A stretch of 64,000 nucleotides of DNA from Chrysomallon squamiferum (lineage: Eukaryota; Animalia; Mollusca), in NCBI GenBank assembly GCA_012295275.1, contig CM022667.1, positions 7,378,001-7,442,000 on the forward strand. The letters run 5' to 3'. This document shows positions 491-61,210 of this stretch, piece by piece. The position numbers and the translations under genes were made by a program. The notes below the pieces were generated by a model, which saw only the letters and a list, made by a program, of their open reading frames with translations, was not told where the DNA came from and ran no database searches. The first letter of the stretch is position 1, and each line of letters begins with the position of its first letter.

Positions 491-493
<3 letters not shown>

Positions 494-16589: not shown

Positions 16590-16659
<70 letters not shown>

Positions 16660-18080
16660 TACTAAGAATGAGAAACAAAGATTTTGAGATAAAATAATAG
16701 AAAAAAATTAAATTTCTGCTTTAACTGCAGGAGCTATTTTTAACTGAGAGTAAAATATGGCTTTCTAATGATGAGCAAGGTAAATCTTGCACTAGAACAA
16801 TGGAGGGGAGATAACTACTCAGGTTAAACTTACTTGCTTCTTTCCCTTGTTGTCTTTGATATGTAAACAATCCTTCCCAGTCTGCAGCATTTTTATGTCA
16901 ACAACTGACACTGGAAAATAAATTATAAATCATTGCATAATAACACAACAACTGACACTGGAAAAATAAGTTATAAAACATTGCATAATAACACAATAAC
17001 TGACACTGGAAAAATAAGTTTATTAAATCAATAATTGGAAAAATAGGTTATAAAACATTGCACAATAACACAACTGACACTGGAAAAATAAGTTATAAAT
17101 CACTGCATAATAACACAATAACTGACACTGGAAAAATAAGTTATAAAACATTGCATAATAACACAACAACTGACACTGGAAAAATAAGTTATAAATCACT
17201 GCATAATAACACAACTGACACTGGAAAAATAAGTTATAAAACATTGCATAATAACACAATAACTGACTGGAAAAAAAATAAAACATTATAAAATCACTGA
17301 CACTGGAAAAATAAGTTATAAAACATTGCATAATAACACAATAACTGACACTGGAAAAATAAGTTATAAAACATTGCACAATAACACAACTGACACTGGA
17401 AAAATAAGTTATAAAACATTGCATAATAACACAATAACTGACACTGGAAAAATAAGTTATAAAACATTGCACAATAACACAACAACTGACACTGGAAAAA
17501 TAAGTTATAAATCATTGCATAATAACACAACAACTGACACTGGAAAAATAAGTTATAAATCATTGCATAATAACACAACAACTGACACTGGAAAAATAAG
17601 TTATAAATCATTGCATAATAACACAACAACTCAAATAACATGCTTTCTTATCATTCTACTTATTTTTACCCAATGTTTCTTTATCAGCAGTGAGTAAATA
17701 ATTAATAAAAAATGTATCATTTTTACATTTCTCTGTCACAATATACAAAAAAGAAAACAGCACTACCATACTTTATTTTTAGTAAACATCAATACAAAAA
17801 ACTAGCAAGTTTACAGGATGTATTCAGACAAAGTAAAACTAGGTAAAGATGAAGAATGGTTTTATCTGCGTATAATCACTGAGATTTTCTCTTACATTTG
17901 TTAGGCAGTTGTTCCAGTGCTGGGGAATCACTGTCCACGCAGTCTCCGTAGTAAAAAGACTTGTAGTTTGGAGACAGTCGCCAGTACCAGTATTTAGCTA
18001 CAAGACAAATTTTAAAATATAAACAGTATTCATTTTATTATCTACACCAAAACAAGGGTGACTCAGTAACAAACGTGAAT

Positions 18081-18137
<57 letters not shown>

Positions 18138-21100
18138 CAGAATAACAGTCATACAAAACAGAGAGAAACAAAAACAAATCATCCAGGATAGTATGTTTTA
18201 TATTAAACTTTAACTTCATTTTTCATTTTCTAATGTCTGTTGCTGTTGTTATTATTATTATTATTAAGGCATTTTTGCTGTCTAAATACTTCAAGGAAAA
18301 AAATGAGTAGAAAGATGTACCTTTCATTTTCCCTCTGTTGTTGTACTTATGAAAGCGAGTACCTTCAACCATTTCATGAAACCTCTGTCGCTTGATAAGA
18401 TCAATAATTTCTGGAGTTATTTTTTCTCTCAATTCACTGAAAACACACAAAGATAACTTGAATATAAAAACTATAACAATAATTTCTGGTGTTATTTTTT
18501 ATTTTTCATTGAAACACTGAAGGATGAACTTAATTATAACCACTATGACATAACAAAGCATAAATCTGACTAGTGAAATAATACACAATTATATGTTCAG
18601 TTTTCTAAGATTACAGCCTAACATGGTACAAATTTAAATTTATATATATGGTGTCCATAATGTTAAACCACATAAATACAAATAACAAGATATTCGTAAA
18701 CTACCAACATTTTGAAAGTGAAATCTTACTTAGATCTGTCTTTTTTGTAACAACAACAAGTATGTCTGTTTTTCACCTTCTAACACCTAAATCCCCACAT
18801 TAACAAATACCTGTATGCTGCTTAATTATGTTAACTCGATTACTATATCATCAGTAAACTGAAGATTAACTATATTATTACAAAATTCCAAATTGCTATA
18901 TTATTAGAATGCTCTTGATTACTATATTATTAGAATGCTCTAGATTACTTTATTAGTAGCATACTGTAGATTACTATATTATTAGAATGCTCTTGATTAC
19001 TATATTAGTAGCATACTGTAGATTACTATATTATTAGAATGCTCTAGATTACTATATTATTAGAATGCTCTTGATTACTATATTATTAGAATGCTCTAGA
19101 TTACTATATTATTAGAATGCTCTTGATTACTATATTATTAGAATGCTCTAGATTACTTTATTAGTAGCATACTGTAGATTACTATATTATTAGAATGCTC
19201 TTGATTACTATATTATTAGAATGCTCTAGATTACTATATTATTAGAATGCTCTTGATTACTATATTATTAGAATGCTCTTGATTACTATATTATTACTAT
19301 GCTCTAGATTACTTTATTAGAATACTGTAGATTACTATATTATTAGAATGCTCTTGATTACTATATTATTAGAATGCTCTTGATTACTATATTATTACTA
19401 TGCTCTAGATCACTTTATTAGTAGTATACTATACATTATCTATATTATTACTATGCTCTAAATCACTTTATTAGTAGTATACTATACATTATCTATATTA
19501 TTACTATGCTCTAAATCACTTTATTATTAGAATGCTCTAGATTATTATTAGAATGCTCTTGATTACTATATTACTATGCTCTAGATCACTTTATTATTAG
19601 TATACTGTAGATTATCTATATTATTACTATGCTCTAGATACTTTATTAGTAGTATACTTTAGATTATTATGTTATCAGAATGCACTTGATGACTTTATTG
19701 TTAGCATACTGTAGATTAGCTATATTAGAATGCTCTAGATTACTTTATTAGTAGCATATTGTAGATTACTATATTATTAGAATACTCTAGATTACTTTAT
19801 TACTAGTAAACTGTAGATTAACTATATTATTAGTATGCAGTAGATTACTATATTATTAGAATACTCTAGATTACTTTATTACTAGTAAACTGTAGATTAA
19901 CTATATTATTAGTATGCAGTAGATTACTATATTATTAGAATGCTCTAGATTACTTTATTAGTAGTATTACTGTAGATTACTATATTATTAGAATGCTCTA
20001 GATTAGTTTATTAGTAGCATTCTGTAGATTACTATGTTATTAGAATGCCCTAGACTCTACTGTAGATTATCTATATTATTAGAATTCTCCAGATTACTTT
20101 ATTAATAGCATACTGTAGATTACAATGCTAGTATACTGTAGATAAATATTAGTGTACTGTAGATTAGTTAGTATACAGTAGATTACTGTTAGTATACTGT
20201 AGATTACTCACATTATAGGCTTTGCCTGAGACTCCCATTCTTCCTTGCTCTTCTGTTCTAACTCCCAGATTTTTAAGATTTCTGTATAGGTCAGCTGATT
20301 TAATCTACTTTTCAATGCCTCAAATGTTGATGGGTGAATTTCTAATGCTCTTGTTATCTGTTCTTTGACAACCCCCAGCACCTGAAAAATAAGACAAAGA
20401 AGGAAATATTGAAGTGTACAACTTTTTAAGACACGCACACATACACAAACAACCACATGAAAAATAGATGGAAAACAGTCACCATTGATACGGGTAGAGA
20501 GAAAAACTATTTGGAAATAACAGATGGAGAGATACTCATTTTTTTTTTAAATTTCAGTAGAGATAGTCACAGTTTAAAAATTAAAACAAAGACAGGCAAA
20601 CAGGCTAGGAACAAATGTTCAGAACAAACTTTTTGGAAGTCTTCAGAAGTGGCTTTCATTTCTCTCCAGGTTTTGTTAAGAAGCTGGATACAGGCACAGA
20701 AGAATTCTTCAAACGGTTTGTCATGACAGAAAAACATTGGGTAGAATGTCTGACCTTCCTCAGTTGCTGTGAGAAAATTTTAAAAATGAAATTCAAAAAC
20801 AATATTTATACATTTGTACCCAGATTTATTCATCCATATATATGTGTTTTTTGTTCCACCTTCCAGAATATGTGTGTAGCGTGTATGTGTCCTGTGTGAA
20901 ACAGAATCACGTGATCCATTGAAAAAAGCTACAAACTTTTGAAACAACCCTATATAAGCTTTTGATATGAATAAAACCAATAAACAAACAAAACACTTGT
21001 CTTTTTATATAGAAATCCTTCATAATATATTTCAATACAAATAAATAATTATGTCATTACATATTTACTTATAAGTGGAATGTTTACAACAAAATCAGAT

Positions 21101-24100
21101 CAGGTTGTACATACGTGGTTTTCCTATTTTCAGAGTCTCACACAGAATCTTTGTCAGATAAATGCTGGCTTGAACAAACGGACAGTCATGTTCATCAGCA
21201 CGACTAGAATTCTCCAAAACAACCTGAAATCACAGAATTACTCTGTACTGAAATCTTGTGTCAGCTTTATATTCAAATAAACACTGCACATAAACAATTC
21301 ACTTCAGGAAATAAAAATAAGAAGTTATAAGCATTCATACTGGCTGATTTTACTACTGCAAAGGAAACTACTGAAAATTTACATTCCAAAAGCATGAGAA
21401 ACATGTTTAGACTGACTTCAGGAATAAAAAGAACAAAATGGTTGTATGCACTGATATTGGCTGGTTTTATTTTTTTTATTACCAAAGGAAATTCTCTAAG
21501 ATCCCCCTGCCCCCCAAAGATATGTAATAATAATAATAATAGAAAAATATGAAAAACTCATTTGGAATTTTACAAATTCTAGAGCTTTTCATTTGTTCAA
21601 TTTAGACTTATGTTAAGTGAAAACGTTGACAGTATTAATGAAAACAATGAGTATTAATAAAAACAGTGTCAGTATTAGTGAAAACAGTGTCAGTATTAAT
21701 AAAAAGAGTGACAAATACCTTAACATAGTTCTCTCCGTGTGTTCTGGCGAAGTACAGCATCACGTCGAGTGCAAGTAAACCTGGAGGCGTCTTCGTGAAG
21801 TCTGCTGCCGGGTTGCTCTGATTCTGAAACAGTTGATAAAAACCTGAGTTAACCTGCTTACTGGATGAAAACAACTTAGTATAATTAAAACATTTATATT
21901 AACAATAACTGAGCAAGTATGTGTCACAGGTGTGATAACAATTTTTATGATGATTAATATAATAAGATTTGCATTTATGATGAGCTCGTTATTATTAATA
22001 AATAATTTTAAAAAGAGAACAATGATGTTATTACTAATAAATGGAATGATTATGTTTTTATTAATAAACACAAAATGAAGAACTTAGTACCTGGAATCCG
22101 AGTTTTCTGTAGTCTTTGGCGGAGCTGTGTGACTTCCTCACTGTGTTGATGTTCGGGTCCCCATCAACATCAAACGCTATCCTCCGAAGCTCTTCTATAT
22201 CTTTGGAAACACGCTGTAACACAAACCAGTTTCTAGACAGCTCTTTAACAAAGTTAAAACAAATGGCTTTTAATGTATCAGAGATTAAAGTATCTTTCAA
22301 ACAAACCTGGTCATGAGGGTCAACAGGCATTTTCATCTTTTCTTCATGTAGATTCATGAGAAGAACTTGCAAGACATAGAGCTGATGTGCCATCTCATTT
22401 CCCACACTGTGACTGCCTCGTATAACATGCTAAACATAGAAATTTTTTATTCTTTACATCAGCATAACATGCTGTATATAGAAAGTTTTTACTTTTATAT
22501 CAGTATGATGTGCTGTACATAGAAATATCAATTTTTGTTGTTGTTTATGATAATAAAAGGCTATACATAGAATTTTATACTTTTTATATCAAACAATTAA
22601 AGATTGTTACAAGTAACTTAAAGACAAACAAATTTACCCTGAATCAAGTTTGAATGCACAGTATGTTTAGAGCTCACATACAGTAAGCAGGCTAGGTTTT
22701 CAAACCACACAGCAGTTTTGTAGTTTAAAACTCAGGATATGAATGTTTAGAAACCAGACATTGCATCTATTTATAGAACATGACACTCTTGACATGTTTA
22801 ATGTTTATCAAATAACAATGAATTTATTATGTACTGATAAAATTAACAATTAGCGAATGAAAGCCATTATTAAAACAGTTAGCACATGAAAATACTGACA
22901 AAGGAAATTTAAAGATACTTATTAGCCTTATTATACCAGAAACATACATGTTGTAAACAAATCATGTAAACAATGTAAACAATCTGTGTAAACAGTTTTA
23001 AATACTCACACTTAGTATGACACTTCTCATGCTTTTGGAATGTAAATTTTCAGCAATTTTCTGAGAAAATAAAAATAAAACAAAACAGAAATAAAACATT
23101 TCTGCCCATGAAATAGAGTTTTGTTCTCTCATTCTAAACCATAATTAGTTTGTTTGGTCTGTTCATTTTCATCTAAACAGCTATATGTACTTTGAAAAAC
23201 ATGTCTAAAAATAATTATAGTTATTTGAAATTAGATACTCAAATAAAAATAAATAAATAATAATATTAACAATAACAATAGCAATAAAAATGATGATAAT
23301 AATCACAATAATTATAATAACAATTTTAAAACAATAATAATAACAAGAGTAATAATATTAAAACAAAAACAACAATAATAATAATAACAATAACAACAAT
23401 AATATTATTATTAAGATAACAATAAAATAACGATTGATCTCACCTTCTTTTTCTCGTGTTCTGCCTTCATGAAGAGTGCATTGATAAGTGCTATTGCGTT
23501 TTTCTGAATGCCAGATTTTTGGCTACAAGAAAAGTGTAAGTCGGGTTCGGATGCTTTTCTTATCTGCGTGTTGTTCACATAGCGACTGGTGTAAAGTGAA
23601 GAGCATTAGTAACGTGGCTGCACGTCATTTCTCACAAAGGCACGAAAATAATATTTTAAAATTAAATAAATGTCTATATATTTTTATCTCTTTTTTACCT
23701 TTTGTTTTTTTCTAAAAATAAATTTCTAAAATTATATTCTGTCAAAAATAAATATATTTCTTTTATTAGATAAAATTGTCCAAACAGGCAACATTTAAAA
23801 GTGATGTTTAATAAAAGTCATCAGTTATTTCAGTTAGTAATAACTTTCATATCAGTGAATATCCTGGAAACAAAACTTAGCTGTAATAAAATATTCAAAT
23901 TAATTTCATGCATTAAAAAGTGCCATAATCATTCAAACAATCCAAAACCACAGCAACAAAACATAATTCTTGAAAAACAATATAAAAATTAAAAAAAAAA
24001 AAAAACAGACAACTATTAATTGACAACAGTGCATTACTAACATATACTAATGATTGTCTGAAAAAATATATATAAAAAACACAAAATAAAATTAAAACAT

Positions 24101-27100
24101 AGACAGTAACATGCTCTGTACATTGTAAACATTTGTTTTAATTTGTGCCATTACCACATGCCTCTGTGAAACCTCTGAGCAAGCCACTGAAACTTTTCAG
24201 CATATTCACAATACACACAGCCACCAATATGTAATGTACAAATTATACTCATAGCATACATAAATATACTCACAGTAACACCATAACACACAATTATACT
24301 CACAGTAACACAGTATACATAAATATACTCACAGTAACACTGTAACAATTAAACTCACAGTAACACAGTATACATAAATATACTCACAGTAACACCATAT
24401 CACAATTATATTCACAGTAACACAGACTACATAAAAGCATTACAGACGAAACACCATAACTCCATTTATTTAATGTGCAAAATAACCTCACTTGAAAATC
24501 ATTAATTAAATATTAAATTCATTAATGACATTTATATAAATTATAGTACTGTATATCATAAATGAAACTGAAATAAAGACTATTTAAAAAATTATTATTT
24601 CAATTTGAGGAGACACTATAATTAAGCAAATAAAAATTTTAAGTATTAAAAATAATTAGAGACTAAAATTTAATTTTATATATTTAACTTAAAGAAAATT
24701 GTAACAAACTTTATAACAAAGAGAAATGTATTTGATAAAATCTATCTGACACCCCAGCACATGCAATGTTAAAAAACAACAACCAAAATGAACATGCATG
24801 TTTAATTATGAAACAAATGTGTTTTTTTCAAATCAGAAAATGAATTTTTCCAGTCTTTAAATGTTTCTGTTCATTGTATCTCTGTGAAGTGTACAAAAGC
24901 ACTAACAAGTACATGCAGACCTGGAAAAACAAAACTCACCTCTGTAGATGAGGAATAATGTTTGCTGGTGTTATCATCTGATCTACTAAATACTGCTTTG
25001 TAGAGCTGTTAATAACAATAACAATAACAATAACAATAACAATAACAATAACAATAACAACAACAACAACAACAGTAACAGTAACAATAAAAACAATTAA
25101 AAAACCCAATAACAATAATAATAACAACAATAACAATAACAACAATAACAATAACAGTAATAGGTTTTCAGTTTAAATATATCTAATTATAAATTAAGAA
25201 ATTAACAAGTTACTCTCATTTTTAAGACACAAATAAGAAAACAATATTTTCCACTGATGTCATATTTAGTTTTATATTGTGTGTAAATAACGACAAAAGC
25301 AGAAACCTGTGAAGAACTATTGACTCCATTATCTCTAGAGCTGACTGCAAGCACTGGCTGTCCAAATTTGGATTAACACAGTTCACACAGTCCGCTACCT
25401 GAAACACACAGATAAAACTTTAATTTACAGTTCACAGTCTGCTACCTGAAACACAGATAAAACTTTAATTTACTCAGTTCACACAGTCTGCTACCTGAAA
25501 CACACAGATAAAACTTTAATTTACAGTTCACAGTCTGCTACCTGAAACACACAGATAAAACTTTAATTTACTCAGTTCACACAGTCCGCTACCTGAAACA
25601 CACAGATAAAACTTTAATTTACTCAGTTCACACAGTCTGCTACCTGAAACACACAGATAAAACTTTAATTTACAGTTCACAGTCTGCTACCTGAAACACA
25701 CAGATAAAACTTTAATTTACAGTTCATAGTCCGCTACCTGAAACACACAGATAAAAGTTTAAACAGTTTAAGTCTTTACAGATAAAAGTTTAATTTACAG
25801 TTCAGTCTGCTTGAAACACACAGATAAAACTTTAATTTACACAGTTCACACAGTACGCTACCTGAAACACACAGATAAAACTTTAATTTACAGTTCACAA
25901 TCTGCTATCTGAAACACACAGATAAAACTTTAATTTACTCAGTTTACACAGTCCGCTACCTGAAACACAGAGATAAAACTTTAATTTACAGTTCACAGTC
26001 TGCTACCTGAAACACACAGATAAAACTTTAATTTACTCAGTTTACACAGTCCGCTACCTGAAACACACAGATAAAACTTTAATTTACAGTTCACAGTCTG
26101 CTACCTGAAACACACAGATAAAACTTTAATTTACAGTTACACAGTCCGCTACCTGAAACACACAGATAAAACTTTAATTTACACAGTTCACACAGTACGC
26201 TGCCTGAAACACAGATAAAACTTTAATTTACAGTTCACAGTCTGCTACCTGAAACACACAGATAAAACTTTAATTTACAGTTCACACAGTTGAAACACAC
26301 AGATAAAACTTTAATTTACAGTTCACAGTCTGCTATCTGAAACACACAGATAAAACTTTAATTTACTCAGTTCACACAGTCCGCTACCTGAAACACACAG
26401 ATAAAACTTTAATTTACAGTTCACAGTCTGCTACCTGAAACACAGATAAAACTTTAATTTACTCAGTTCACACAGTCTGCTACCTGAAACACACAGATAA
26501 AACTTTAATTTACAGTTCACAGTCTGTTGAAACACACAGTCAGTTCACACAGTCCGCTACCTGAAACACACAGATAAAACTTTAATTTACTCAGTTCACA
26601 CAGTCCGCTACCTGAAACACACAGATAAAACTTTAATTTACAGTTCACAGTCTGCTACCTGAAACACACAGATAAAACTTTAATTTACAGTTCATAGTCC
26701 GCTACCTGAAACACACAGATAAAAGTTTAATTTACAGTTCACAGTCTGCTACCTGAAACACAGATAAAAGTTTAATTTACAGTTCAGTCTGCTACCTGAA
26801 ACACACAGATAAAACTTTAATTTACACAGTTCACACAGTACGCTACCTGAAACACACAGATAAAACTTTAATTTACAGTTCACAATCTGCTATCTGAAAC
26901 ACACAGATAAAACTTTAATTTACTCAGTTTACACAGTCCGCTACCTGAAACACAGAGATAAAACTTTAATTTACAGTTCACAGTCTGCTACCTGAAACAC
27001 ACAGATAAAACTTTAATTTACTCAGTTTACACAGTCCGCTACCTGAAACACACAGATAAAACTTTAATTTACAGTTCACAGTCTGCTACCTGAAACACAC

Positions 27101-30100
27101 AGATAAAACTTTAATTTACAGTTACACAGTCCGCTACCTGAAACACACAGATAAAACTTTAATTTACACAGTTCACACAGTACGCTGCCTGAAACACAGA
27201 TAAAACTTTAATTTACAGTTCACAGTCTGCTACCTGAAACACACAGATAAAACTTTAATTTACTCAGTTCACACAGTCCGCTACCTGAAACACACAGATA
27301 AAACTTTAATTTACAGTTCACAGTCTGCTATCTGAAACACACAGATAAAACTTTAATTTACTCAGTTCACACAGTCCGCTACCTGAAACACACAGATAAA
27401 ACTTTAATTTACAGTTCACAGTCTGCTATCTGAAACACAGATAAAACTTTAATTTACTCAGTTCACACAGTCCGCTACCTGAAACACACAGATAAAACTT
27501 TAATTTACAGTTCATAGTCCGCTACCTGAAACACACAGATAAAAGTTTAATTTACAGTTCACAGTCTGCTACCTGAAACACACAGATAAAAGTTTAATTT
27601 ACAGTTCAGTCTGCTACCTGAAACACACAGATAAAACTTTAATTTACAGTTCACAGTCTGCTATCTGAAACACACAGATAAAACTTTAATTTACTCAGTT
27701 CACACAGTCTGCTACCTGAAACACACAGATGAAACTTTAATTTACAGTTCAGTCTGCTACCTGAAACACACAGATAAAACTTTAATTTACTCAGTTCACA
27801 CAGTCCGCTACCTGAAACACACAGATAAAACTTTAATTTACACAGTTCACACAGTACGCTACCTGAAACACACAGATAAAACTTTAATTTACAGTTCACA
27901 GTCTGTTACCTGAAACACACATATAAAACTTTAATTTACTCAGTTCACACAGTCCGCTACCTGAAACACACAGATAAAATTTTAATTTACAGTTCACAGT
28001 CTGCTACCTGAAACACACAGATAAAACTTTAATTTACAGTTCACAGTCTGCTACCTGAAACACACAGATAAAACTTTAATTTACAGTTCATAGTCCGCTA
28101 CCTGAAACACACAGATAAAAGTTTAATTTACAGTTCAGTCTGCTACATGAAACACACAGATAAAACTTTAATTTACACAGTTCAGTCTGCTATCTGAAAC
28201 ACACAGATAACAGTTTAATTTACAGTTCAGTCTGCTACATGAAACACACAGATAAAAGTTTAATTTACAGTTCAGTCTCCTACATGAAACACACAGATAA
28301 AAGTTTAATTTACAGTTCAGTCTGCTACATGAAACACACAGATAAAAGTTTAATTTACAGTTCAGTCTGCTACATGAAACACACAGATAAAAGATTAAAT
28401 TAAACAGTTCACACAATCTACTACACAAAACACAGAAAAAAGTTTAATTTACAACTCTAGTAAAGCACATTAATCCTTCAGAATAATTATGTTAATCATT
28501 CTAATCCTTTGAAGTGATTAACCAATAACTCTAATCCCAGAAAGTGATTAAGCAAATTGCTCTAATCTTGAGAAATGACTAAGTAAATAACTTTAATCCA
28601 GAGAAGTAATTAAGTATGTAACTCTAATAGTGATTAACAATTCTGTAAACTCACCCTCCTGATGAAGTCAGGCTCTAGAACATCCCATGAAATAATCCCA
28701 TGGTCCATCAGTGCCATAAATGACATGAGTGTCTTAGCAAGAGGCTCACCTTGACTACAGTCAGACACAAGAAAACATTCAACTGATGTTTTATTAAAGA
28801 AAAGCTACTGACATGTGACAATGGAAAGAATTTATACTGGTTAGGAATGAAATAAAATATAAAAATTATGGTCACAATGTGCTGATTTATTTTACTAAAA
28901 TTTTAATTGAAAATAGAATAAGAATATATTATTATCATACATTTGATTATTATTATTGTATATTTTATATTTATTACTATGGTTCTTGTTGTTATTGTTA
29001 TTATTTTATCTAAGCTAATATTTAACACATGACTTTTATTTAATTATCTATCTAAACTGTAATATTAACAATACCCAGAGATAACATAGGAAATAATCTG
29101 CCAGTTTCAAAAAACTGAAAAGCTTTAATGAAGATGAAATGAAAACATGGAGATATCAAATTTTTAAAGAAAATTATTTCAAAGGTGGCTGGTGTAATTC
29201 TAGTTATTTTCATCACTTACTACTTTCCTTCTGTTAAGAGTTTAATGATGAGGAAGTGGCCTCCCTTGTTAATGAACTCCTCTGCAAACGAGTGGTCGAG
29301 GGCAAGTTGTGCCAACTGCTGAAGAGCTTCGAACTCAACTTGTTTCTTTCCTGACTTCAAGTGTTCATGTATAGTTTGAGCCTTCTGCGTCTGAAATTCA
29401 AATTTTACTTCTTAAATAACTAACATCTGAAAATTAGTTTTAACTTTTCAATATTTAATTATTTCCCCCCATTTATATTAAAGAATAAACAGCTAATTCT
29501 GTATCGAGATTTGTGACTTGTAAAATTTAAATATAACATTTTTATCAGGACTGTTCAAAAGTAGTCTGCCTACACAAGGGTATTTTCTAAATGAAAAAAA
29601 AAAGTCTTGTTTCATATTTATAAATTTGGAGATTTATTTTATCAGTTCTGTTTAGCATAGAAGTAAATGACAGCTCACATTTTGTAAACAAAAGTGAATA
29701 TTTTGATGTACTGAGAAGAAAAATTTCTTTATATAACCACAAAAATAAGAACCTGAGACTTGTTTGTTTACAAAACAAATATATAAAACTGAAACAAAAT
29801 AAACATGAGCAAAAAAATACAGTACTTTTTAAAAAAACTGAGTGTAAATTAAAGCCGAATTTATTCTAAAATTTCTTGCATGCCTGACACATGGGAAACT
29901 GATTAAGATTTTTCAGAATGAATCAAGTTGCTGTGGGTGATAAAAAAAACTCACTGGAGACTCTGTAAGCTGCAGAACATTGCCATTCTGAATTTCATGT
30001 CGATTCTGAAATTACAAATACTGAAAAAATTTATCTAGCTAAACATTTTTTTTACTATTTTTATTATCCCAAACAAACATGAAAAACAAACACTGGTAAC

Positions 30101-36043: not shown

Positions 36044-36090
<47 letters not shown>

Positions 36091-44796: not shown

Positions 44797-46634
44797 TTAT
44801 TTCTCTTTCTCTTCTGCTTCCCGCTTCTTCTTCTCTCTAAGGCCTCGTAGTCTAACATGTGCTCTGGCCTGTCTCTGGGCAATGAAAGGACTGAATATTT
44901 TCATTTCTTTAGTGATGGCACGTGGTTTCTCGTGTCTCGTGCTCTGTCTGATCACCATGAATGGAGCCTTCAGCTGAGTGGCAGTCTTAATCTGTTCCTC
45001 CTGCAAATAAACATTTGTATATCATTATACAGCAAGAGATATTCTAATAAAAAAAACAAAAAAATGAAACTTTATTCTCATATATCCAAACCAGAACTGT
45101 TAAAAACATTCAAGTTAATTTACTTCTACTCGCAAACAGATTAAACGTGTTATGAAAATAGAATCTGAAACATGGCTAATACAATAAACAATTTTACAGT
45201 TTGTAGACAATTATTGTTAAAAATTTACCCAAATGAGAAACTGGAGTGTCATGTTTACTGATAATGAGAGTTGCACCAATTTAAACCTTGTCATATTTGT
45301 GCCATATGACACTTCCCAGTTGGGAAAGCATGGTGCCAACCACCAAGTTACAGAAATTATAAATTGCACAATAAAATCTCATCATGTAACAATAATTTTG
45401 TTTTATATTGACTGGCTATGAAATTGTTATGAAAATGCTTCTACAGGATGTCTCAAAAGTCACTACGCATCTTGGTGACATTGGATTTTTTTTTTTCATC
45501 AACTGTAATGACACAATGAAGATGTGCATTTTTTAGTGAAATTTTGTGTTTTTATAAATGAAAAATATTCATGTCTTAAACCAGTTTCTTGGAATTCAAA
45601 ATATTTTTCAAAATAATGACTTTTGAGACACTCTGTACAATGAGATAAAAATCTTAAAATAAATTAAAAAGAAGGAAGAAAAATAAATTATTTCATATAT
45701 CTGCAATAGGTGACATTGCAAGAAGGAAGAGACTAAGTACTTCACATGGAAGCTGTTGAAAATGAGTAATTTTGTCTTACCGTGGCATCACCCTTCTTGG
45801 GTTTGCTGGCTTTTCTTGGAAACAAGATCAGTTTTGATCTGTATTCCTTTAATCTCTGCACATTCTGCTGCAAGGACTCCATGGATCGGTTCATCCGTCT
45901 GTGATCAACAGCAATTCCAATACTTCGAGCCATCTTTTTGTTGATACCTGCTTGCTGCAAACAGACAAAATACTAAATTTTCACTGCATTCAGTTTAATG
46001 CGCAATATTTCTTACTAAAATTAAAAACATTCAAGCCACTATTCTTGCAAACTTAGAAAATTATATGTAATCCAGAAACTGCTGTTTAAAAAGTGTTGTC
46101 AACATTTTCTGGTGCAATTAAAAGTATTGAACTTAATTGCAATGTTTTTATAATGTAATCCAAACTAACTTTGAAAACAGCACAGTACAGGTTTTTTTTA
46201 CTGCATTAAGTAATCAATTTTGAACATTTTGCAAAAACTAAATTAGTAATCAAGTCTTTGTAAATATAAAAAATGATAATGTCTTTGTATTGCAAAGAGC
46301 AATGAAATGTTTCATTTTCTGACTTTTGTTTAATTACAATTCAAATAAAAGATCAAAATGTGCAGTTGAAAAATTAGAAAAGTCATACCTTGAGCTCTCT
46401 GAGTGTAAATCCTCTGCCAGCTCTCACTTTTGTGTTGTATTTAAATGTTGGACAACGACATATTGGTCTTAAAGGGCCAGCGACAGGACGAGGGGCAATC
46501 TTCAAAGCTTTCTTCAGTCTGCTTTTCCTCCTCCTCTGTTTTCTCATGGGTTGATTGAACCATGTTCTCACCATCCGCTGCCAATCCTTATGGAAATGGC
46601 CATTAGGTATGATATTATTTCTTTTGGGAGCCAT
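44797..46634 (-). CDS. RPL13: 60S ribosomal protein L13 (eL13), 207 aa
   Basis: Coding exons 46389-46634, 45781-45954, 44797-45000, all phase 0 GT-AG. Motifs [58 protein letters not shown]. Confidence 0.98.
45444..45635. mobile_element. Mariner-type MITE in RPL13 intron 3
   Basis: TA|CAGGATGTCTCAAAAGTCA ... TGACTTTTGAGACACTCTG|TA. Confidence 0.72.
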
Positions 46635-46683
46635 CTTGCTGTGGGACAAAAAAAGAAAAACATAAAAGAAATGTTCAGATATA

Positions 46684-48953: not shown

Positions 48954-48974
48954 AATAATAACAATAACAATAAC

Positions 48975-49026
<52 letters not shown>

Positions 49027-49160
49027 TATCTCATGATCCATTCCTTGATGCGAAGAGCTACACATGCAGGTGTAATAGCAACTGGAAGGGATTCCCAGGC
49101 TGTATTGGTCAATGGGTAGATTCTAGACTAATAACGACCAGTGCCGAAGACGGAAGAGTT
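48954..49160 (-). mobile_element. Possible 3' end of a non-LTR retroelement/SINE with an (ATT)n tail
   Basis: GC-richer block of about 130 bp followed, on the minus strand, by a long (ATT)n tract. Family not recognised. Confidence 0.3.
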
Positions 49161-52100: not shown

Positions 52101-52360
52101 GCATAGAATTAAATACGCTAGTTGTCAACACTAAACATTGTTTTAATTAATATACATAAATTAACTTCAGTAATTAATTATCACATTAAAGGTTAATTTG
52201 CACTTGGAGTTAATACTTGCATTTTAGTTGTTGTTTTTTTCAGAAATATTTGTTAAACATTACTTTCTAATCAGTAATGTCTTCTGTTTTACATAGGAGC
52301 AATACTGAACATGAAAAAAGCTAGGGAGGTAGACATTTTAAGACCAGAGGCAAGTTTAGG

Positions 52361-55300
52361 ATGTCATCAGTTTTAATACTTCACTTCAATGATGTGTACA
52401 ACATCGAGCCTCAGAAAGAGGAGCCTGTTGGAGGAGCCAGTAGATTTGCAGGATACATTCATTCTTGTGAGAGTGAAAATCCCCTTGTACTCTTTAGTGG
52501 AGATGTTCTCAACCCATCTCTCAGTATGTTTTACTTTAAAACAAAAGCATCCATTAGACAATGTCAAACCATTTTTCAACATTCATCATTTAAAAAAAAA
52601 AAAAAAAAAACATTCATTAGACAATGTCAAACCATTTTTCAGCATTCATAATTTTTGAACAAATTAAAAACAGTTTATAATGTAAATAAAAAATATAAAA
52701 TAAAAATAAAGTCCTTGCTTGCTGTTGATTTTAAAAAGTAACAGCTGTTAGAAAATAGAATTGTTTTTTCTGTTAAATAAATAATTTTCACAAGGAATTG
52801 TAACCATATAGCTTAACAAGAAGTAAACAGTTTTATCTTTTTAATTTTTTTTTTTTTAAATATTATTTTCAGTGAGCATTTTCATGAAAGGGGAACAAAT
52901 GATTCCAGTACTGAATAACATTGCAGTGAAGTGTGCTGTTTATGGCAACCATGACTTTGGTAAGATTAAATATTGAAAACATAAAGAATATCTTAATTTT
53001 ATTGTAAAAAATTATTCATATGTATTTAGATGTATATATATCAGTTGTTTATATCTTTATCTGTAACTCGTACATAATGTGAAACATTATTATTATTATT
53101 ATTATTATTATTAACAATCAGCATCAGTTCTAAAAATAAATAATTTATTTTTATAACACTAATACTGTATTTTAAGAGTTGCTTCTTGATTTAAGCAGTG
53201 ATATTAAAGAACTACTATTTGTATAATGTGTCAACTTAATCAGATAATTATAATTGCTTAAGAATAAAAAATAAATTATAGCAAAATAAATAAATTAATA
53301 AAATAATGAATACACAGTAATGACAGATACATTGGCTACTGGATGTGAAGGTATTTTTGTTTGCTATTTCTAATTTAATAAAACTTAATTAGTTTTCATG
53401 TTTTACCCAATAGATGTGAATATTTTGATATTATTAAAAAAAAAAAAAGCATTTTAAATTATCACACATAAATATTACAAATATTACAAAATAATAAACA
53501 TTATTTCAGATTTTGGTGTTGATCATTTACAAGAAATAGCTAAAATGACCAAGTTTCCATGGTTACTAAGCAATGTGATTGACAATCTCAGTGGCAAGCA
53601 GCTGGGACAGGGAGGAGTTACTCACATGTTGGACTGGAATGGAATCAAGGTGAAAATATTTTATTGTGTCTTAGTAAGGAGACAGGAATATTCTCATTAT
53701 ATTGCTGAAGCTGATACAGAACTTGTAACACAGAATTTACAACTGAAAATAGAAATTAATCTGTGAAAACAACAGTCATACAACCTGGCTGTTAAACAAC
53801 ATCGTGTATTAGTTTGTGAGAATTGTGTTTAGTTTTGTAACACTGATTCATACCAAGCATACTGCTTATTAAATGTTACAAAAAGACAAAAAAAACCTTA
53901 ATATTTTCCAGAGTCAAGGTGGAATAAATAATGATATTCAATGTCAAATATTTTATCACCTATCTATAGTAATACAATATAATATTGTTGTATGAGACAA
54001 TATTATTATTCCCACAAAAATTAATTAAAATATGTAAAGTAACTCATCAAGCTTACCTAATGATAAAATGTGATATTTATGTATATTTTCCTGTTAAAGT
54101 AACAACACTGATTTTATTGTAATACACTTCAGTGATAACTAATGAAAATAAAAATAAAAAGGCAATGAGGTTAAAACAGTAAGTCTGTCAAATATTTTCA
54201 CATTACTGTGTATGAAGCATTGTTGTCAACTCAACTAGTAAAAATTTGTGTGTGTCAGAACCAAATAAACAAGTTCCAGTAACTTAATCCATTTGTCCAT
54301 CCACCAGATACACTTAATACTATATGACTGAACTTGTAATCATGTTGAAGTACCTGTGACTATGACATGATTCACAAACTAGTATAATCTCTAAATGTAA
54401 ATTGTTGACTTGAACATTCAAGATGACAGTTTGTATGATTCACAAACCAATATAACCTCTAAATGTAAATAGTTGACTTGAATATGTCAAGATAACAGTT
54501 TATATGATTCACAAACCAATATAATCCATAAATGTAAATAGTTGACTTGAATATTTCAAGATAACAGTTTATATGATTCACAAACCAATATAATCCATAA
54601 ATGTAAATAGTTGACTTGAATATTTCAAGATAACAGTTTGTCTAAACAGTAGTTTCCTGTCTTTCAAGTTATTTTTTTTTATCACGTAGTTTTAGCTAAT
54701 AATTCTAAATAAGTCATCATAGAAACATTATTTTCAGTTTACACAGATAGAGATAAAATTTAGAAACTAGAAGAATATAGAAACTAAAACCTCAAAATTT
54801 TAATTTTTAATTTATTATTTATTTATTTTTGACAGTTCAGTAAATTTCCTTTCATGCTGTATTTACACTAAATCTGCTGTTATATCTAACTTGACAAAAT
54901 CAGATTTTGATAATTTTTGGTGTGATTTGTTGTTTGTAACAGACATGTTTTCTTTATCATCACCACTGTTACAACTAGTAGATGCCATATTGTCAATCTC
55001 CTGCTTTCATAATTACCTCCTTGAGTAAATATTATTATTAAGTTAAAATAAAATATTTGTTAATTGTTAGTAATTATAAAAGTTTCATAATTACCTCCTT
55101 CAGTAAATCTTGTTACAAATTGTTAAAATAAAATATTTGTAAACTGCTAGTTACTTAATTATCCTCTTCATTCATAAAGGGAGAAAAGGCACCAACAACA
55201 TTTTTGACAGGTTTGTGTCTTTCTTAGTTGTTATTTTGAATTCTTTTTAGCCCCTTTATTGTGTCAAAGCTACCAGGCATGAAAAGTTTGAAAAAAATCA

Positions 55301-58300
55301 CTAGTGAATTATTTCAGATTGGTCTGATGGGGCTGGTTGAAGAAGAATGGATTGAAACTCTGGGGACTATTGATCCAGAAGATGTTACATATTTGGATTA
55401 TGTAGAGGAAGGAAAAAGACTTGCAAACATTTTAAGAAACCAGGTAATTTTTGCCATATTTTTAATCATTGAGGAAACATTTTTACTCATGATTAAGAAA
55501 TGAGGTAATATTATTGTGTCAGTTTTTGTATCCTTGATTAATGAAAAATAAACATTTGTTTAATTTATATTTGATTTGTGGTTTTGTTCAGGGAGCTGAA
55601 GTAGTGATTGCACTGACTCACATGCGCTGGCCTAATGATATTCGACTGGCTGAGAGTGTTGATGATATTGACCTTATTCTAGGAGGTCATGACCACGACT
55701 ATGATGTCAGAATTGTATGTTTTTTTCATTTATTTTTCTTACTAAATGCATAAAAATATTCATGGAAAATTAATATTTAATTGTGGTCTGATAAGAGTGT
55801 TTTTTTATATCTACATTGTTCTCAACTCACACAGTAGTAAGTTTAATATGTAATTGTGGTGTGATAAGAGTGTTTTTTATATCTACATTGTTCTCAACTC
55901 ACACAGTAGTAAGTTTAATATGTAATTGTGGTCTGATAAGAGTGTTTTTTTATATCTGCATTGTTCTCAACTCACACAGTAGTAAGTTTAATATGTAATT
56001 GACTTTGATGCACAAACATGAGTCGTTCAGCTAACAAATGACTACTTCAAAATATTTGTAAACTGCTAGTTACTTCAATATTTGGAATATTTCCAGTATA
56101 ATGTTCTTCCTTTTTATGAAAATGTGTATATGTTGAAGTCATTAAATAAACATTGTATTTATGTATAAAACACTTATTTGTATATATAAAGTTATAAATA
56201 CATTATTACATGCTAAAAACAGATACTTGTATTATTAATTGTTAAAAAACAGATACTTGTATTATTAATTGTTAAAAAACAGATATTTGTATATTACAGT
56301 TAAACAATAAATATATTAGTTGTATATTAGAGGTAAATGATAAAAATATATTAGTGTATATTATAGGTAAATGATAAATATATTATTACAGGTTAAATGA
56401 TAAATATATTAGGTATATATTACAGGTAAATGATAAATATATTATTACAGGTAAATAATAATATATTATTACAGGTAAATGATAATATATTATTACAGGT
56501 AAATGATAAATACATAGTAAAAAGTGGAACTGATTTTCGCAATCTGAGTCGTGTAGTTTTAAACCGAGGCAGAAACAAATGGAATGCAGAAATTGAAAGA
56601 GTGGACATTGATTCCAGGATCCCGGAGGATCCCGATATTAAAAATATTGTTAAAGAGAAGATAGGTAAATAGTTACTTACCATGTACAAAAATCATCTAA
56701 GAACTAAAAAATATTAATAACACTAAAATGTTAAACAATGGAGGTCATATTTCTCTCTCTTTAGAATATTCAAATTGTGAAACTTTAGCTATTGCTAAAT
56801 TTAATGTTTTTCATTTCTGATGAATAACAGATTTTTTGCTTCTTACATTTGAAGTTCAGATAAGTGTTCAACTTGTCTTCTAAATGATTGTAATATAAAT
56901 GTTTAAAGATATATTATTGATTGACAATGTTGTTTCTGTTACAGGACAAATAGATTCTAAAATGGACACGTACCTAGGAGACATGGGTGTAGAGTTAGAA
57001 GGAAGGTTTTCTCACATCAGAAGTCAGGAAACCAACCTAGGTTAATTATCACATTCTTACTTGAGTTCTCTCTACAACATCTGAAACAAACATTTTTGCT
57101 TGAGTTCTCTCTATAACATCTGAAACAAACATTTTTGCTTGAGTTCTCTCTATAACATCTGAAACAGATAACTTTTACTTGAGTTCTCTCTATTACATCT
57201 GAAACAAACAACTTTTACTTGAGTTCTCTCTATAACATCTGAAACAAACATTTTTACTTGAGTTCTCTCTACAACATCTGAAACAAACATTTTTGCTTGA
57301 GTTCTCTCTATAACATCTGAAACAAACATTTTTGCTTGAGTTCTCTCTATAACATCTGAAACAGATAACTTTTACTTGAGTTCTCTCTACAACATCTGAA
57401 ACAAACATTTTTACTTGAGTTCTCTCTATAACATCTGAAACAGATAACTTTTAATGATTGTTTGATTTTGTTAACACAGGTAACTTTGTAACTGACATCA
57501 TGCTGACTGCTACAAAAGCACAAATTGCTCTTCTCAACTCTGGAACATTCCGCTCTGACCGGCTTCACCCAAAAGGCAGATTCACAATCCGAGATCTGCT
57601 CACTATTTTACCTATGGTTGATCCAATTGTTGTCATAAAAGTAACAGGTGAGCTAATGATGAAGTCTGTGACTACAAATTCAAACACAGATACTAAGATA
57701 GTGTAACCATTGAAGAAAGATTTTAAGAAACATTTTTCTTATTTTATTTTCATATTTGCTGTTTATATTTTGATGAGCCACTGACAGGAAAATCATTGAT
57801 TAGTGATTTGATTAGTGACTCTTAATCCACACATTTAAAATGTTCTGTTTGAGAATATAAAAACAGTCTGTGTTACAAAACTATTTAATTATTTGCAGGT
57901 CATGTACTTTTACAAGCATTAGAAAATGGTGTGTCGCAGTATCCTGTCCTGGAAGGTCGATTCCCTCAAGTTGCAGGAGTTGTGTTTGGTTTTGATCCAA
58001 GTGAACCTCCAGGACAGAGGGTCATTCCAGAACTGGTCAAAGTTCAAGACCAGTATTTAAACTTGGATCAGGTATTAAACAATTCCTACTGGAATTTATT
58101 TTCATTGGTTCTTGCTATATCTAATGTGATACTACTAATTTAAATCATAATTTTTGGATAATATTAAATGTTCTCATGATAAAGTATTTTTCTCACTTCT
58201 GGCATAGAATATAAATTTTGTTCTGATACTCATTAACTTTAAATAATAAAATGTCTTGAAGTGAGTTTGACACTGATGTCTAAGAAAATAAACAGAGGCA

Positions 58301-60974
58301 GCCATTTTCTTTTTTTAATTACGACACTTTCTGTACAGAAACAATATGGAGATTAGATTGACAAAGTACATTACTTGGTAGAAAGTTTACATATAGTAGT
58401 CCATTTTTGTTTTATTTTCCTGTTCATGTAATGGTTGTGAAAGAACAAATGACATGAGCTTATTAAAATCATGATGTTAACAAAGAGCAAATATGATTAT
58501 AAAATGTTGAGGATTATTTTCACACCTTTATAGGTATTTATTTTTAAAATGTTATATCTAATACACTGATATGTTCAAAAAAAACTTACTGTGCCAAGGC
58601 CAGTAGACTCTGTCGATGACCTGATTTGCATGGTAACTGAAGAATGTGTTTTTGGAATTATCTTTTTTAACTTCATGTTTATCCTTCTTGATATTCATTT
58701 TTACATTTATAGGAATATACTTTGTGTACAAAAGAATATATGTACTTTGGAAAAGATGGTTATGGAGTTCTCAGTGACTGTGAAGTTGTGGTGAGTAAAT
58801 TTATTAAGTTACTTCTTTTTTTCCAGAAAGTTAAATAAATAAACATCTCTGGTTAGTTTATCTGTTTTTCTTATTTTTTCATTGTGCAATCAAGTATTTT
58901 AAAAACAGTATGAAGTGACAAGTATTATTTTCATGCTAGAAATATTTTATCTTATTTAATATATGATATTATTTGAAATTATTTGGTTTAATTAAATTTA
59001 AAAAAAGGTTTATGATTATGGTATATAATCATTTATATAATAAAATATTCTGTTTCAGGTTAGTTCAGAGCAGTGTCAAGCTCTGACAACTACAGTTCAG
59101 AATCATTTTGAGTCGGTGAAGATTCATCTCGGACAGTTACCATGCAAATCAGGTCATCGACAGAGTCTACTGGCCTTGGCACAGTAAGTTTTCTTTGAAC
59201 ATATGTTATATTATTCTTCTCTAGTCATAGAGTGCTGGTTAGATTGGGAAATATCCATAATAGTGTCCATTTATTTTTTACTGAGTTTCAATTTTCTTTC
59301 AAAAAAAAAAGAAGATATATACAGTGGTATCTTGACTTATGAGTTTAATTTGTTTTGTGACTGAGCTCATAACTCAATTTGCTCATATATCAAATCAGTT
59401 TTCCCAACTGAAATTAACTGAGATACCATTAATCTGTTCTAGCCACTAAAAACTACCCCATTTTTTTGTAACATATTTTTAAATAAGAAAAATCTATTTA
59501 TAAATGACTAATATTGTATAAAAACAAAATAAAAGAGAATGTAAAGAAATAAATTGGTTTTGTAAAGTGTATTTATCTTGGAGATCAGACCAATTCTTTT
59601 AATGCCTTTGACTGGAGTTATAGCCTTTACTGACTCCTTCAGCATTAGTATGGTACATGTTGTAGAAGTACTACACTTCCACTGCCTAACCAAGATGACT
59701 ACGAACACACCTAGCTTGTTTTTCTATGATTTCATGCTTTATTTCAATGGACATCGTCTGCTTCTTCTTCTCAGCGCTTTGCACTCATTTTCTTATAATC
59801 CATGATCAGAAAAAAGAAATTTGACAAAATACTGCACAAAACGCAAGTACAAAACAACGATAAACATGTGAAGTAAATGATTAGACGTGGGATGCTGGGC
59901 AGATGTTGTGTTGTTTGTTGCACCAACTAGCAGTGGTGTATCTGAAGCTCGCTCATAACTCAAAGCAAAAAATTGACCGGGCAACTGCTTGTAACTCGGA
60001 AAACCTGCAAGTTGGAGCACTCATAAGTCGAGGTACTACTGTATACACACACACACATACATGAAGTACTAGTATGTGAATTTATAGGTGCCTCATTAAC
60101 TGTTGTTTCTTTCAAAAGTTGTTAACAAAAGTTAAGAAAATTATTTGAACCAGCATCACAAATTATTTCCATATTTAAATTTACAAATACTGTTGTTAAC
60201 AGCGAAAATGTTTATTTTAATTTTTATCCTAATTTCAGTTTTTGTTTCAAAACATCACAATCAGGCATTCACAGTATATTATCTTGCTGGCTTGGTATTC
60301 TGTATAGTTTAATAATAATAAATTAATATTTTTCAATCACTTTTATTTATAAAACAAAACTGTCCTGATGTTTCTTTACAACAAAAAAATACAACAAGAA
60401 CAGTAGTCTTTAAATTTATATATCTGAATCAAAGTGGATTTAATTTAATTTACATTAATATTTGTGCAGGAAAGATAGCATAGTAATCCGAGCTAGTATG
60501 AAGAAAAGTAATAAGCCATGGCCACTTGTCCGACAGAACAGCATCCATGCTGCAGAAGTAGAACAGTGTTATCTTTGTCCAAAAGTGGAAGGAAGAATCT
60601 TCCTTGTTGACAAAGAGGTTATTATTATTATATTTTTAAAATTATTATTCCTAAAACATGAACACTATATTGTAACAAGACTTGGAATCCAGTTATGAAG
60701 ATTTTTATTTTTATTTTTTGGGTGGATGAAGGGAAAATCTGTAATGTGTCTGGATGTGTGTGCATCTCTGTGTGTGTGCCATTTCGTTGAGAAGCCAAGT
60801 GAATTTTTCACTTTTTTTAAAACATAACAGAATTGATAAATTATTTGGATACATTTACAGAAAAAAGAGATAATGCTGAGTCTGAAGCCATCATTTTCTC
60901 CTCAGCTGAGTACCATGAGTGAGGAGTTTCAGAGTCAGAGTACAGACAGCACGAACAGTGAGATCAGCAGCTAG
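52361..60974 (+). CDS. 5'-nucleotidase/UshA-family calcineurin-like metallophosphoesterase (CG11883-like), 13 coding exons, 568 aa, no signal peptide
   Basis: Exons 52361-52523, 52873-52959, 53510-53649, 55318-55443, 55592-55714, 56499-56664, 56945-57040, 57480-57647, 57899-58071, 58713-58790, 59059-59183, 60470-60617, 60861-60974. All GT-AG, total 1707 nt including TAG. Motifs LHFNDVY, FSGD, GNHDFD, ALTHM, GGHDH, KSGTDF, RSQETNLGNFVTD, LNSGTFR, ALENGVS..GRFPQV, GKDGY. Confidence 0.93.
54368..54640. repeat. About 68-bp tandem repeat x4 in nucleotidase intron 3
   Basis: ATGATTCACAAACCAATATAATCCATAAATGTAAATAGTTGACTTGAA... repeated. Confidence 0.88.
55778..56000. repeat. 72-73-bp tandem repeat x3 in nucleotidase intron 5
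   Basis: TAATTGTGGTCTGATAAGAGTG... at 55778, 55851, 55923. Confidence 0.9.
56290..56510. repeat. 24-34-bp repeat of the nucleotidase exon 6 acceptor junction, about 8 copies
   Basis: ATATTATTACAG|GTAAATGATAA repeated; the last copy is the exon start at 56499. Confidence 0.88.
57053..57452. repeat. About 39-bp minisatellite x10 filling nucleotidase intron 7
   Basis: CTTGAGTTCTCTCTATAACATCTGAAACAAACATTTTTG units. Confidence 0.93.
59322..60041. mobile_element. Tc1/mariner-pogo (Tigger-like) non-autonomous element
   Basis: TA|CAGTGGTATCTTGACTTATGAGT ... ACTCATAAGTCGAGGTACTACTG|TA: about 23-bp imperfect TIRs and TA TSD, in nucleotidase intron 11. Confidence 0.82.
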
Positions 60975-61210
60975 TGAGACACAGGTTGTAAATAGTGAGA
61001 TGTACAGACAGCACGAACAGTGAGATCAGCAGCTAGTGAGATTTACAGACAGCATGAACAGTGAAATCAGCAGCTAGTGAGACACAGATTGTAAATAGTG
61101 AGATGTACAGACAGCATGAACAGTGAGATCAGCAGCTAGTGAGACAGATTGTAAATAGTGAGATGTACAGACAGCACGAACAGTGAGATCAGCAGCTAGT
61201 GAGACATATT
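60940..61210. repeat. About 60-bp repeat x5 containing the nucleotidase last codons and stop
   Basis: GTACAGACAGCACGAACAGTGAGATCAGCAGCTAGTGAGA at about 60940, 61002, 61043, 61105, 61165. Confidence 0.9.

What the first reader, a model, noticed from the sequence alone, without database searches (positions are those of the whole stretch)
16902..61210. Recurrent splice-junction minisatellites: tandem amplification of the genes' own intron/exon boundaries
Seen: at least five unrelated repeats each consist of the intron end, the AG and the first 9-35 nt of the exon. They occur at ELMO exon 7 (about 60 copies), exon 19 (about 15), exon 11 (3-4), exon 17 (2) and nucleotidase exon 6 (about 8). The homology-supported exon start is always the 3'-most copy. 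Other arrays begin at donors (ELMO exons 6, 13, 16), and one repeats a stop-codon region. Each unit derives from local sequence, so the shared feature is position, not sequence. Inference: either a mutational process nucleates tandem duplication at exon boundaries (nucleosome edges, spliceosome/R-loop pausing), or decoy splice-site arrays tune splicing and NMD. Caveat: only intron-side expansions survive selection, and this genome is generally repeat-rich.
Basis: partly seen in the sequence, partly recalled or inferred. Interest (0 to 1): 0.9.

Follow-up and report, generated by a model that had tools for sequence, protein, structure and literature searches.

The report
Splice-site "mirage" minisatellites in snail genes
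In two genes of a likely snail, short pieces of DNA that straddle an intron-exon border have been copied head-to-tail up to about 60 times inside the intron; assembled RNA uses only the true, last copy at the three borders checked, and this repeat type is already known from lancelets as a "mirage" and is most likely harmless clutter.

Summary
Five unrelated repeats copy an intron end, AG and 8-35 nt of exon: ELMO exons 7 (62 upstream copies), 19 (15), 11 (3), 17 (1, diverged) and 5'-nucleotidase exon 6 (8). Homology puts the real exon start at the 3'-most copy in all five; RNA contigs confirm it for exons 7, 11 and 17 and show no decoy joint. DNA contigs of two studies hold the arrays in the stretch laid. 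These are "mirage" minisatellites, described in amphioxus (PMC3087553, PMC3902484), with a human donor-side case in F7 (PMC1557585). This scan's unchecked notes report them in annelids, urchins, a clam and an octopod. Arrays do cluster at junctions here: 4 of 21 span an acceptor (0.8-1.5 expected) and 6 start within 30 nt of a donor (1.0-1.8 expected). But the window was picked for this, and the acceptor excess is borderline under the stricter null (P 0.05-0.07). Most likely a non-adaptive by-product of tandem duplication in a repeat-rich genome. A junction-biased birth process is not excluded; nothing supports regulatory decoys.

The parts
15770..41263 (-). ELMO/CED-12 gene, 21 coding exons, 730 aa
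   Evidence: Open spliced frame; 39-50% identity to 6 full-length homologs; Pfam PF04727 on exon 15; RNA joints for exons 6-17 in part
25372..28453 (-). Acceptor mirage of ELMO exon 7: 62 upstream copies of a 45-51-nt unit, 54 with AG, 45 with AG|GT; real acceptor at 25398
   Evidence: RNA loose ends at 25399 continue into exon 6 in X8 and X9
16899..17631 (-). Acceptor mirage of ELMO exon 19: 15 upstream copies of a 48-nt unit, 14 with AG; real acceptor at 16910
   Evidence: homology only for the acceptor
22422..22600 (-). Acceptor mirage of ELMO exon 11: 3 upstream copies, 41-48 nt; real acceptor at 22429
   Evidence: RNA joint 22429-23010 in X8 and X9; single DNA contigs in X1 and X4 span it
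18400..18540 (-). Diverged two-copy acceptor duplication of ELMO exon 17, 80 nt apart; real acceptor at 18436
   Evidence: RNA loose end at 20212 reads into the start of the real exon 17 in X8 and X9
56270..56519 (+). Acceptor mirage of 5'-nucleotidase exon 6: 8 upstream copies, most CAG|GTAAAT (also a strong donor motif); real acceptor at 56499
   Evidence: gap-free homology to P0004 and 5 others across the junction; no RNA check
52297..60973 (+). 5'-nucleotidase gene (PF00149 + PF02872 in its homolog), 13 exons
18838..20217 (-). 26-nt-unit array beginning at the donor of ELMO exon 16 (about 47 copies); copies lack the GT
   Evidence: donor confirmed by RNA; exon tail not significantly copied (26 of 33 control donors score as high)
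28512..28628 (-). 31-nt-unit array 26 nt after the donor of ELMO exon 6
21613..21710 (-). 21-nt-unit array 8 nt after the donor of ELMO exon 13
   Evidence: inside single DNA contigs of X1 and X4
36999..37031 (-). 16-nt duplication in register with the donor GT of ELMO exon 2 (GTAAG copied as GTTAG)
22952..22994 (-). Short array 15 nt after the donor of ELMO exon 10
52508..52670 (+). Donor-side duplication of nucleotidase exon 1 end (two further copies, GT changed)
   Evidence: 1 of 33 control donors scores as high
55432..55520 (+). Diverged two-copy donor duplication of nucleotidase exon 4, second copy keeps GTAAT
   Evidence: 0 of 33 control donors score as high
57051..57453 (+). 39-40-nt-unit array (10 copies) filling nucleotidase intron 7, 10 nt from the donor and 26 nt from the acceptor
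60941..61219 (+). Tandem copies of the last coding 30-odd nt plus stop codon of the nucleotidase, in the 3' flank

Best explanation
These are 'mirage' minisatellites: each is a local tandem duplication that includes a splice junction and was likely amplified as a non-adaptive by-product of repeat instability, and the gene stays intact because the last copy runs on into the whole exon and is the one spliced at the three junctions checked in RNA. Steps: (1) birth of a doublet by slippage or microhomology-mediated duplication (inferred); (2) expansion and homogenisation by unequal exchange (inferred from higher-order periods and blocks of like units); (3) purifying selection removes arrays inside coding sequence, so extra copies lie on the intron side (pattern shown, cause inferred); (4) the spliceosome picks the copy attached to the full exon and its donor, as in exon definition (outcome shown for 3 of 5, mechanism inferred); (5) rare use of an ELMO decoy would give a premature stop and likely NMD (reading-frame result computed, decay inferred). 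The excess near junctions in this window is probably a mix of window selection, short ancestral introns and longer survival of arrays next to exons, where deletions are constrained (inferred).
For: Units match their own junction and differ between loci. 0 arrays lie wholly inside 5,254 coding bases while minisatellites cover 11,434 of 64,000 bases; 10 of 21 intronic arrays and the large arrays in 1-13000 have no tie to a junction. RNA contigs of X8 and X9 join only to the 3'-most copy at exons 7, 11 and 17. 0 of 72 AG-intact ELMO decoys give an in-frame, stop-free insert. The same anatomy and normal splicing are reported for amphioxus mirages (PMC3087553, passages; PMC3902484, passages) and human F7 (PMC1557585, abstract). 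Exon-centric site choice: PMC9225289 (passages). Neutral microhomology-mediated duplication depleted from coding regions: PMC13167724 (abstract and opening text). An unrelated animal has a junction-spanning array in ELMO (L008/L009).
Against: A selective filter can only deplete, yet acceptor-spanning (4 against 0.8-1.5) and donor-adjacent arrays (6 against 1.0-1.8) are in excess in both null models, and the excess is one-sided: 1 donor-spanning and 1 acceptor-adjacent, as chance gives. The survival-near-exons argument is untested and would predict symmetry. 43 of 54 exon-7 decoys score within 1 bit of the real acceptor or higher, so site strength does not explain the choice. Contigs drop rare isoforms; both RNA runs are from one study; exon 19 and nucleotidase exon 6 have no RNA check.
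Confidence: 0.66

Rival explanations
1. Tandem duplications are born preferentially at exon edges, with transcript polarity (across acceptors, just after donors), through a transcription-, splicing- or chromatin-linked lesion such as polymerase pausing, R-loops or nucleosome edges, or through low-complexity splice signals acting as microhomologies.
For: 11 of 21 arrays have an end within 30 nt of a junction against 3.6 (pooled) or 6.4 (within-intron) expected, P=0.0002 and 0.008; the excess holds in ELMO alone and at stricter TRF settings. 6 of 34 acceptors and 4 of 34 donors match their own intron better than all 33 control junctions, against about 1 expected each. TRs are reported enriched towards intron ends in plants and algae (PMC3887541, passages).
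Against: One window chosen for the pattern, categories set afterwards, 21 arrays. Within-intron acceptor P rises to 0.06-0.075 at lower TRF thresholds, and 'near' P to 0.2-0.3 with a 50-nt cut-off; the nucleotidase alone is not significant for acceptors or for 'near'. Birth bias and survival bias cannot be told apart here.
Confidence: 0.23
2. The arrays are kept by selection as decoy splice sites that tune splicing efficiency, NMD or recursive splicing, with copy number as a dial.
For: Many decoys keep a full acceptor consensus; nucleotidase exon 6 copies are also strong donors (8.9 bits against a median of 6.6 for true donors), and the two nearest would add 8 or 16 residues in frame.
Against: No decoy joint among the RNA joints listed. 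The exon 6-7 contig runs unbranched 129 nt in X8; its 27-nt overhang in X9 fits a branch to unspliced RNA, not to a decoy (my inference from contig geometry). High identity of copies is expected from recent amplification. The ELMO loci L001-L004 show no TRF array across an acceptor.
Confidence: 0.08
3. The arrays are assembly artefacts.
Against: Single DNA contigs in X1 and X4 (two studies) span 20190-23235 with 6-7 substitutions and one 1-nt gap, covering the exon 11, donor 10 and donor 13 arrays. Summed depth on the exon 7 unit is 7,886 against 131-161 beside it in X4 and 403 against 10-12 in X1 (the tool warns this is no copy number). Units carry many distinct variants.
Confidence: 0.03

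Closest known systems
'Mirage' minisatellites of amphioxus: Adh3 (Canestro et al. 2002, not held, known through PMC3087553), globins BflGb6 and BflGb9 (PMC3087553), troponin C and PGBD5 (PMC3902484)
   Same: Tandem units span an intron/exon boundary and duplicate splice signals; unit sizes overlap (10-72 and 150-160 bp there, 24-80 here); normal splicing is kept; several per gene region.
   Different: Here in a gastropod-like genome; up to 62 extra copies against 2-7 units in the globin and PGBD5 passages read; a within-window position test suggests an acceptor-spanning and donor-adjacent excess that those passages do not quantify; copy-number variation not shown here.
Human F7 intron 7 37-bp VNTR (PMC1557585, abstract)
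   Same: The element at the exon end spans the boundary; identical pseudo-sites are silent although functional.
   Different: Donor side, with a 5'-to-3' scanning rule tested by experiment; here the intact decoys are acceptors lying upstream of the real site, which a first-come rule would not skip.
Microhomology-mediated tandem duplication (PMC13167724, abstract and opening text; Haber and Louis model as cited there)
   Same: Local single-copy DNA becomes a doublet and then an array, largely neutral, depleted from coding regions.
   Different: Edge microhomologies here (for example 8 nt at exon 19) cannot be told from decayed outer copies.
Intron gain by tandem duplication of AG/GT proto-splice sites (Rogers model, as cited in PMC3087553) and recursive AG|GT sites (recalled)
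   Same: ELMO exon 7 and nucleotidase exon 6 units contain AG|GT.
   Different: No new intron is made: the junctions before exons 17 and 19 fall at about the same residues in other animals' ELMO loci; three of five mirages have no AG|GT; the introns are short.

Membership tests
Mirage minisatellites | Tandem repeat whose unit spans an exon-intron boundary | tested here: met
   4 TRF arrays run 8-27 nt into the exon; exon 17 is a diverged doublet
Mirage minisatellites | Copies duplicate the splice signal (cryptic sites) | tested here: met
   AG intact in 54 of 62, 14 of 15, 3 of 3, 1 of 1 and 8 of 8 copies
Mirage minisatellites | Normal splicing is kept, no aberrant mRNA seen | tested here: met
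   RNA contigs use the 3'-most copy at 3 of 5 sites (ELMO exons 7, 11, 17); the other two by homology only; contigs drop rare forms
Mirage minisatellites | Copy-number variation between haplotypes or somatic cells | tested here: inconclusive
   The exon 11 array has the same length in X1 and X4; depth ratios on the exon 7 unit differ between runs but are no copy number
Mirage minisatellites | Locus-specific unit, not a dispersed family | tested here: met
   For 4 of 5 sites the own junction outscores all 33 control junctions against the own intron; units differ by inspection; no genome was held for a genome-wide check
Recursive (AG|GT ratchet) splice sites | Acceptor followed at once by a strong donor motif | tested here: inconclusive
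   Met for nucleotidase exon 6 (8.9 bits), weak for ELMO exon 7 (-1.8 to 2.0 bits), absent for exons 11, 17 and 19
Recursive (AG|GT ratchet) splice sites | Intermediate junctions or lariats in nascent RNA | not testable with these tools
   Only contigs of RNA runs were offered
Intron gain by tandem duplication | The intron position is new and the intron consists of duplicated exon sequence | tested here: not met
   Exon-like blocks in L002-L004 break at about the same residues (539/540 and 611/612) (rough tblastn edges; exon 7 not resolved); the arrays sit inside introns that have their own donors

The most novel reading that the evidence does not exclude
In this snail lineage, and perhaps across marine invertebrates, tandem duplications are born at exon edges with transcript polarity (across the 3' splice site and just downstream of the 5' splice site), which would reveal a splicing- or transcription-coupled mutational process that grows introns from their ends and gives natural titration series of up to 60 near-identical competing acceptors.
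Probability: 0.23. Interest if true: 0.65.

Novelty: new member of a known kind. Interest (0 to 1): 0.3.

Why it matters
As it stands it extends a lancelet curiosity to a gastropod and shows that up to 54 intact upstream acceptors can be skipped, a natural test of 3' splice-site choice and a trap for gene annotation and exon-primed PCR. If the junction bias holds genome-wide for young duplications, it would point to a mutational link between splicing or chromatin and intron growth, and would make the unexplained origin of mirages (called unclear in PMC3087553) directly testable.

Tried and rejected
No whole genome was held, so the genome-wide test was not run. A homolog search with ELMO exon 5 found nothing; exon 16 in the representatives library gave 128 proteins. 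My idea that donor-side arrays are junction-spanning units whose decoy GT was purged: by eye the copies at ELMO donors 2, 13 and 16 and nucleotidase donor 1 have lost or weakened the GT, but of 8 donor-side cases only nucleotidase donors 1 and 4 copy the exon tail better than controls (1 and 0 of 33), ELMO donor 10 is borderline (2 of 33) and five fail (4-26 of 33). Nucleotidase donor 4 keeps its GT, and L008/L009 carry 9 downstream donor copies, 7 with GT and 4 identical to the real site. Rejected as a general rule. Weak junction-like matches at nucleotidase acceptors 8 and 10 and ELMO donors 1, 15 and 17 were not counted as mirages. Edge microhomology was inconclusive. The ten metagenome ELMO loci (L008 and L009 nearly identical) are too few for statistics. 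No coding gene was evident beside the arrays in 1-13000 (ORF list only). RNA and DNA for the nucleotidase and for ELMO exon 19 were not examined, so decoy use there is open. Canestro et al. 2002 was not held. Ten paper searches listed no report of mirages in molluscs; that library lacks most subscription journals. PMC7736800 (passages) and PMC6905558 (passages) mention snail tandem repeats without a junction link. No supplements were read.
Full report
Setting. The window is AT-rich animal DNA (GC 24-38% per 2 kb). Its TMEM70-family ORF (42645-43358) has two hits, at 66% and 68%, the second from Gigantopelta aegis, and the spliced nucleotidase is 80% identical to a G. aegis protein. I infer a gastropod related to that snail. 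No whole genome was held. I built gene models from the sequence: ELMO (21 exons, minus strand, open 730 aa), a 5'-nucleotidase (13 exons, plus strand) and RPL13 (Pfam). That gives 34 introns, 31,422 bases in all.

Observation. TRF finds 31 merged minisatellite arrays (period 10 or more), 21 of them in those introns. Four run into the next exon: ELMO exon 7 (25372-28453), exon 19 (16899-17631), exon 11 (22422-22525) and nucleotidase exon 6 (to 56519). ELMO exon 17 has one diverged copy 80 nt upstream (P=0.006). Upstream copies and intact AGs are 62/54, 15/14, 3/3, 8/8 and 1/1. Six arrays start 3-26 nt after a donor and one 6 nt before it. The nucleotidase stop region is repeated at 60941-61219.

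Which copy is real. Alignment with six ELMO and six nucleotidase homologs shows no missing or extra block at any of the five junctions when the 3'-most copy is used. RNA contigs of X8 and X9 (one study) were laid on 20190-25500. They join exon 10 to 22429, run from 25398 into exon 6, and run from the exon 16 donor into the true start of exon 17. None of the listed joints or loose ends goes to a decoy, but 69 loose ends were not shown and contigs drop rare forms. Exon 19 and nucleotidase exon 6 rest on homology alone.

Real DNA. Single contigs in DNA runs X1 and X4 (two studies) span 20190-23235 with 6-7 substitutions and one 1-nt gap. Summed depth on the exon 7 unit is tens of times that of the flanks (7,886 against 131-161 in X4; 403 against 10-12 in X1), which the tool says is no copy number. 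An artefact is unlikely for what was laid.

More than chance? I collapsed each array to one unit and placed it at random, either over all introns or within its own intron. Acceptor-spanning: 4 observed, 0.77 or 1.50 expected (P 0.006, 0.046). Donor-adjacent within 30 nt: 6 against 1.00 or 1.78 (P 0.0003, 0.006). Donor-spanning and acceptor-adjacent: 1 each, as expected. Any end near a junction: 11 of 21 against 3.55 or 6.36. The excess holds at stricter TRF settings and in ELMO alone. It weakens at looser ones (within-intron acceptor P 0.06-0.075; 'near' P up to 0.32 with a 50-nt cut-off), and the nucleotidase alone is not significant for acceptors. The window was selected for the pattern, so these P values are optimistic. 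The background is heavy: minisatellites cover 11,434 of 64,000 bases, none wholly inside 5,254 coding bases.

What decoy use would do. With weight matrices from the window's own 34 junctions, 43 of 54 exon 7 decoys and 13 of 14 exon 19 decoys score within 1 bit of the real site or higher, so site strength does not explain the choice. None of the 72 AG-intact ELMO decoys gives an in-frame, stop-free insert. The two nearest nucleotidase decoys would add 24 or 48 nt in frame, and their CAG|GTAAAT is also a strong donor. This last site is the best candidate for any functional effect and is unchecked in RNA.

Donor side. Several donor-side copies look as if the GT was lost. A control against the other 33 donors supports copying of the exon tail only at nucleotidase donors 1 and 4, of 8 tested. 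An unrelated animal's ELMO (L008/L009) has a 32-nt array across the donor of the exon matching exon 16, with 7 of 9 downstream copies keeping GT. So intact decoy donors can persist, and I drop 'donor decoys are purged' as a rule.

Mechanism. Most likely a local duplication arises by slippage or microhomology (inferred; general support in PMC13167724, abstract and opening text) and expands by unequal exchange (inferred from higher-order periods of 98 and 145 nt). It survives only if the extra copies fall on the intron side. The spliceosome uses the copy that continues into the whole exon, in line with exon-centric choice (PMC9225289, passages; its human data still show an upstream preference among competing acceptors, reduced under exon definition, so exon-body enhancers probably matter too, inferred). 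Selection alone cannot create an excess at junctions. I put that down to window choice, short introns and protection from deletion near exons, but a birth bias is a fair rival (0.23), mainly because the excess is one-sided.

Comparison with what is known. [quoted passage not shown] Troponin C and PGBD5 are further cases (PMC3902484, passages). The human F7 intron 7 VNTR is a donor-side case studied by experiment (PMC1557585, abstract). TRs are enriched towards intron ends in plants and algae (PMC3887541, passages). The original Adh3 paper was not held. My ten searches listed no mollusc report. This scan's earlier, unchecked notes describe mirages in annelids, sea urchins, a clam and an octopod, one with an acceptor bias; I had reached the mirage reading before reading them, and I do not count them as evidence.

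Verdict. A real, dense cluster of mirage minisatellites in a gastropod-like genome: a new member of a known kind, interest 0.3. The open point worth a genome-wide test is whether such duplications are born at exon edges with transcript polarity.

Noticed in passing
window 37523-40302: Element in ELMO intron 1 with about 600-bp terminal inverted repeats (37523-38117 and 39707-40302, 96-99% complementary), likely a recent non-autonomous DNA transposon.
   Followed up: partly
window 23585: Alternative acceptor of ELMO exon 9, 63 nt upstream of 23522, seen as an RNA joint in X8 (depth 44.6 against 85.5) but not X9; by my reading it adds 21 residues in frame. It is not part of a repeat.
   Followed up: partly
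window 4639-6765 and 8932-10817: Large arrays away from the modelled genes: a 17-nt unit, about 123 copies, and a CA-rich composite satellite; no coding gene evident nearby.
   Followed up: partly
L008:1788-2114 and L009:2135-2461: Donor-spanning 32-nt mirage (about 10 units) in another animal's ELMO, at the exon matching window exon 16, whose donor also abuts an array in the window.
   Followed up: partly
window 42645-43358 (+) and 44797-46638 (-): TMEM70/186/223-family gene and ribosomal protein L13 gene lie tail to tail between ELMO and the nucleotidase; the two modelled RPL13 introns hold no minisatellite.
   Followed up: partly
window 57051-57479: The array filling nucleotidase intron 7 has unit variants resembling the exon 8 acceptor (own junction outscores all 33 controls; local alignment P=0.064); it may be an old, decayed acceptor mirage.
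   Followed up: partly
ELMO donors 1, 15 and 17; nucleotidase acceptor 10: Weak junction-like matches in the adjacent intron without a TRF array; decayed doublets or chance.
   Followed up: no
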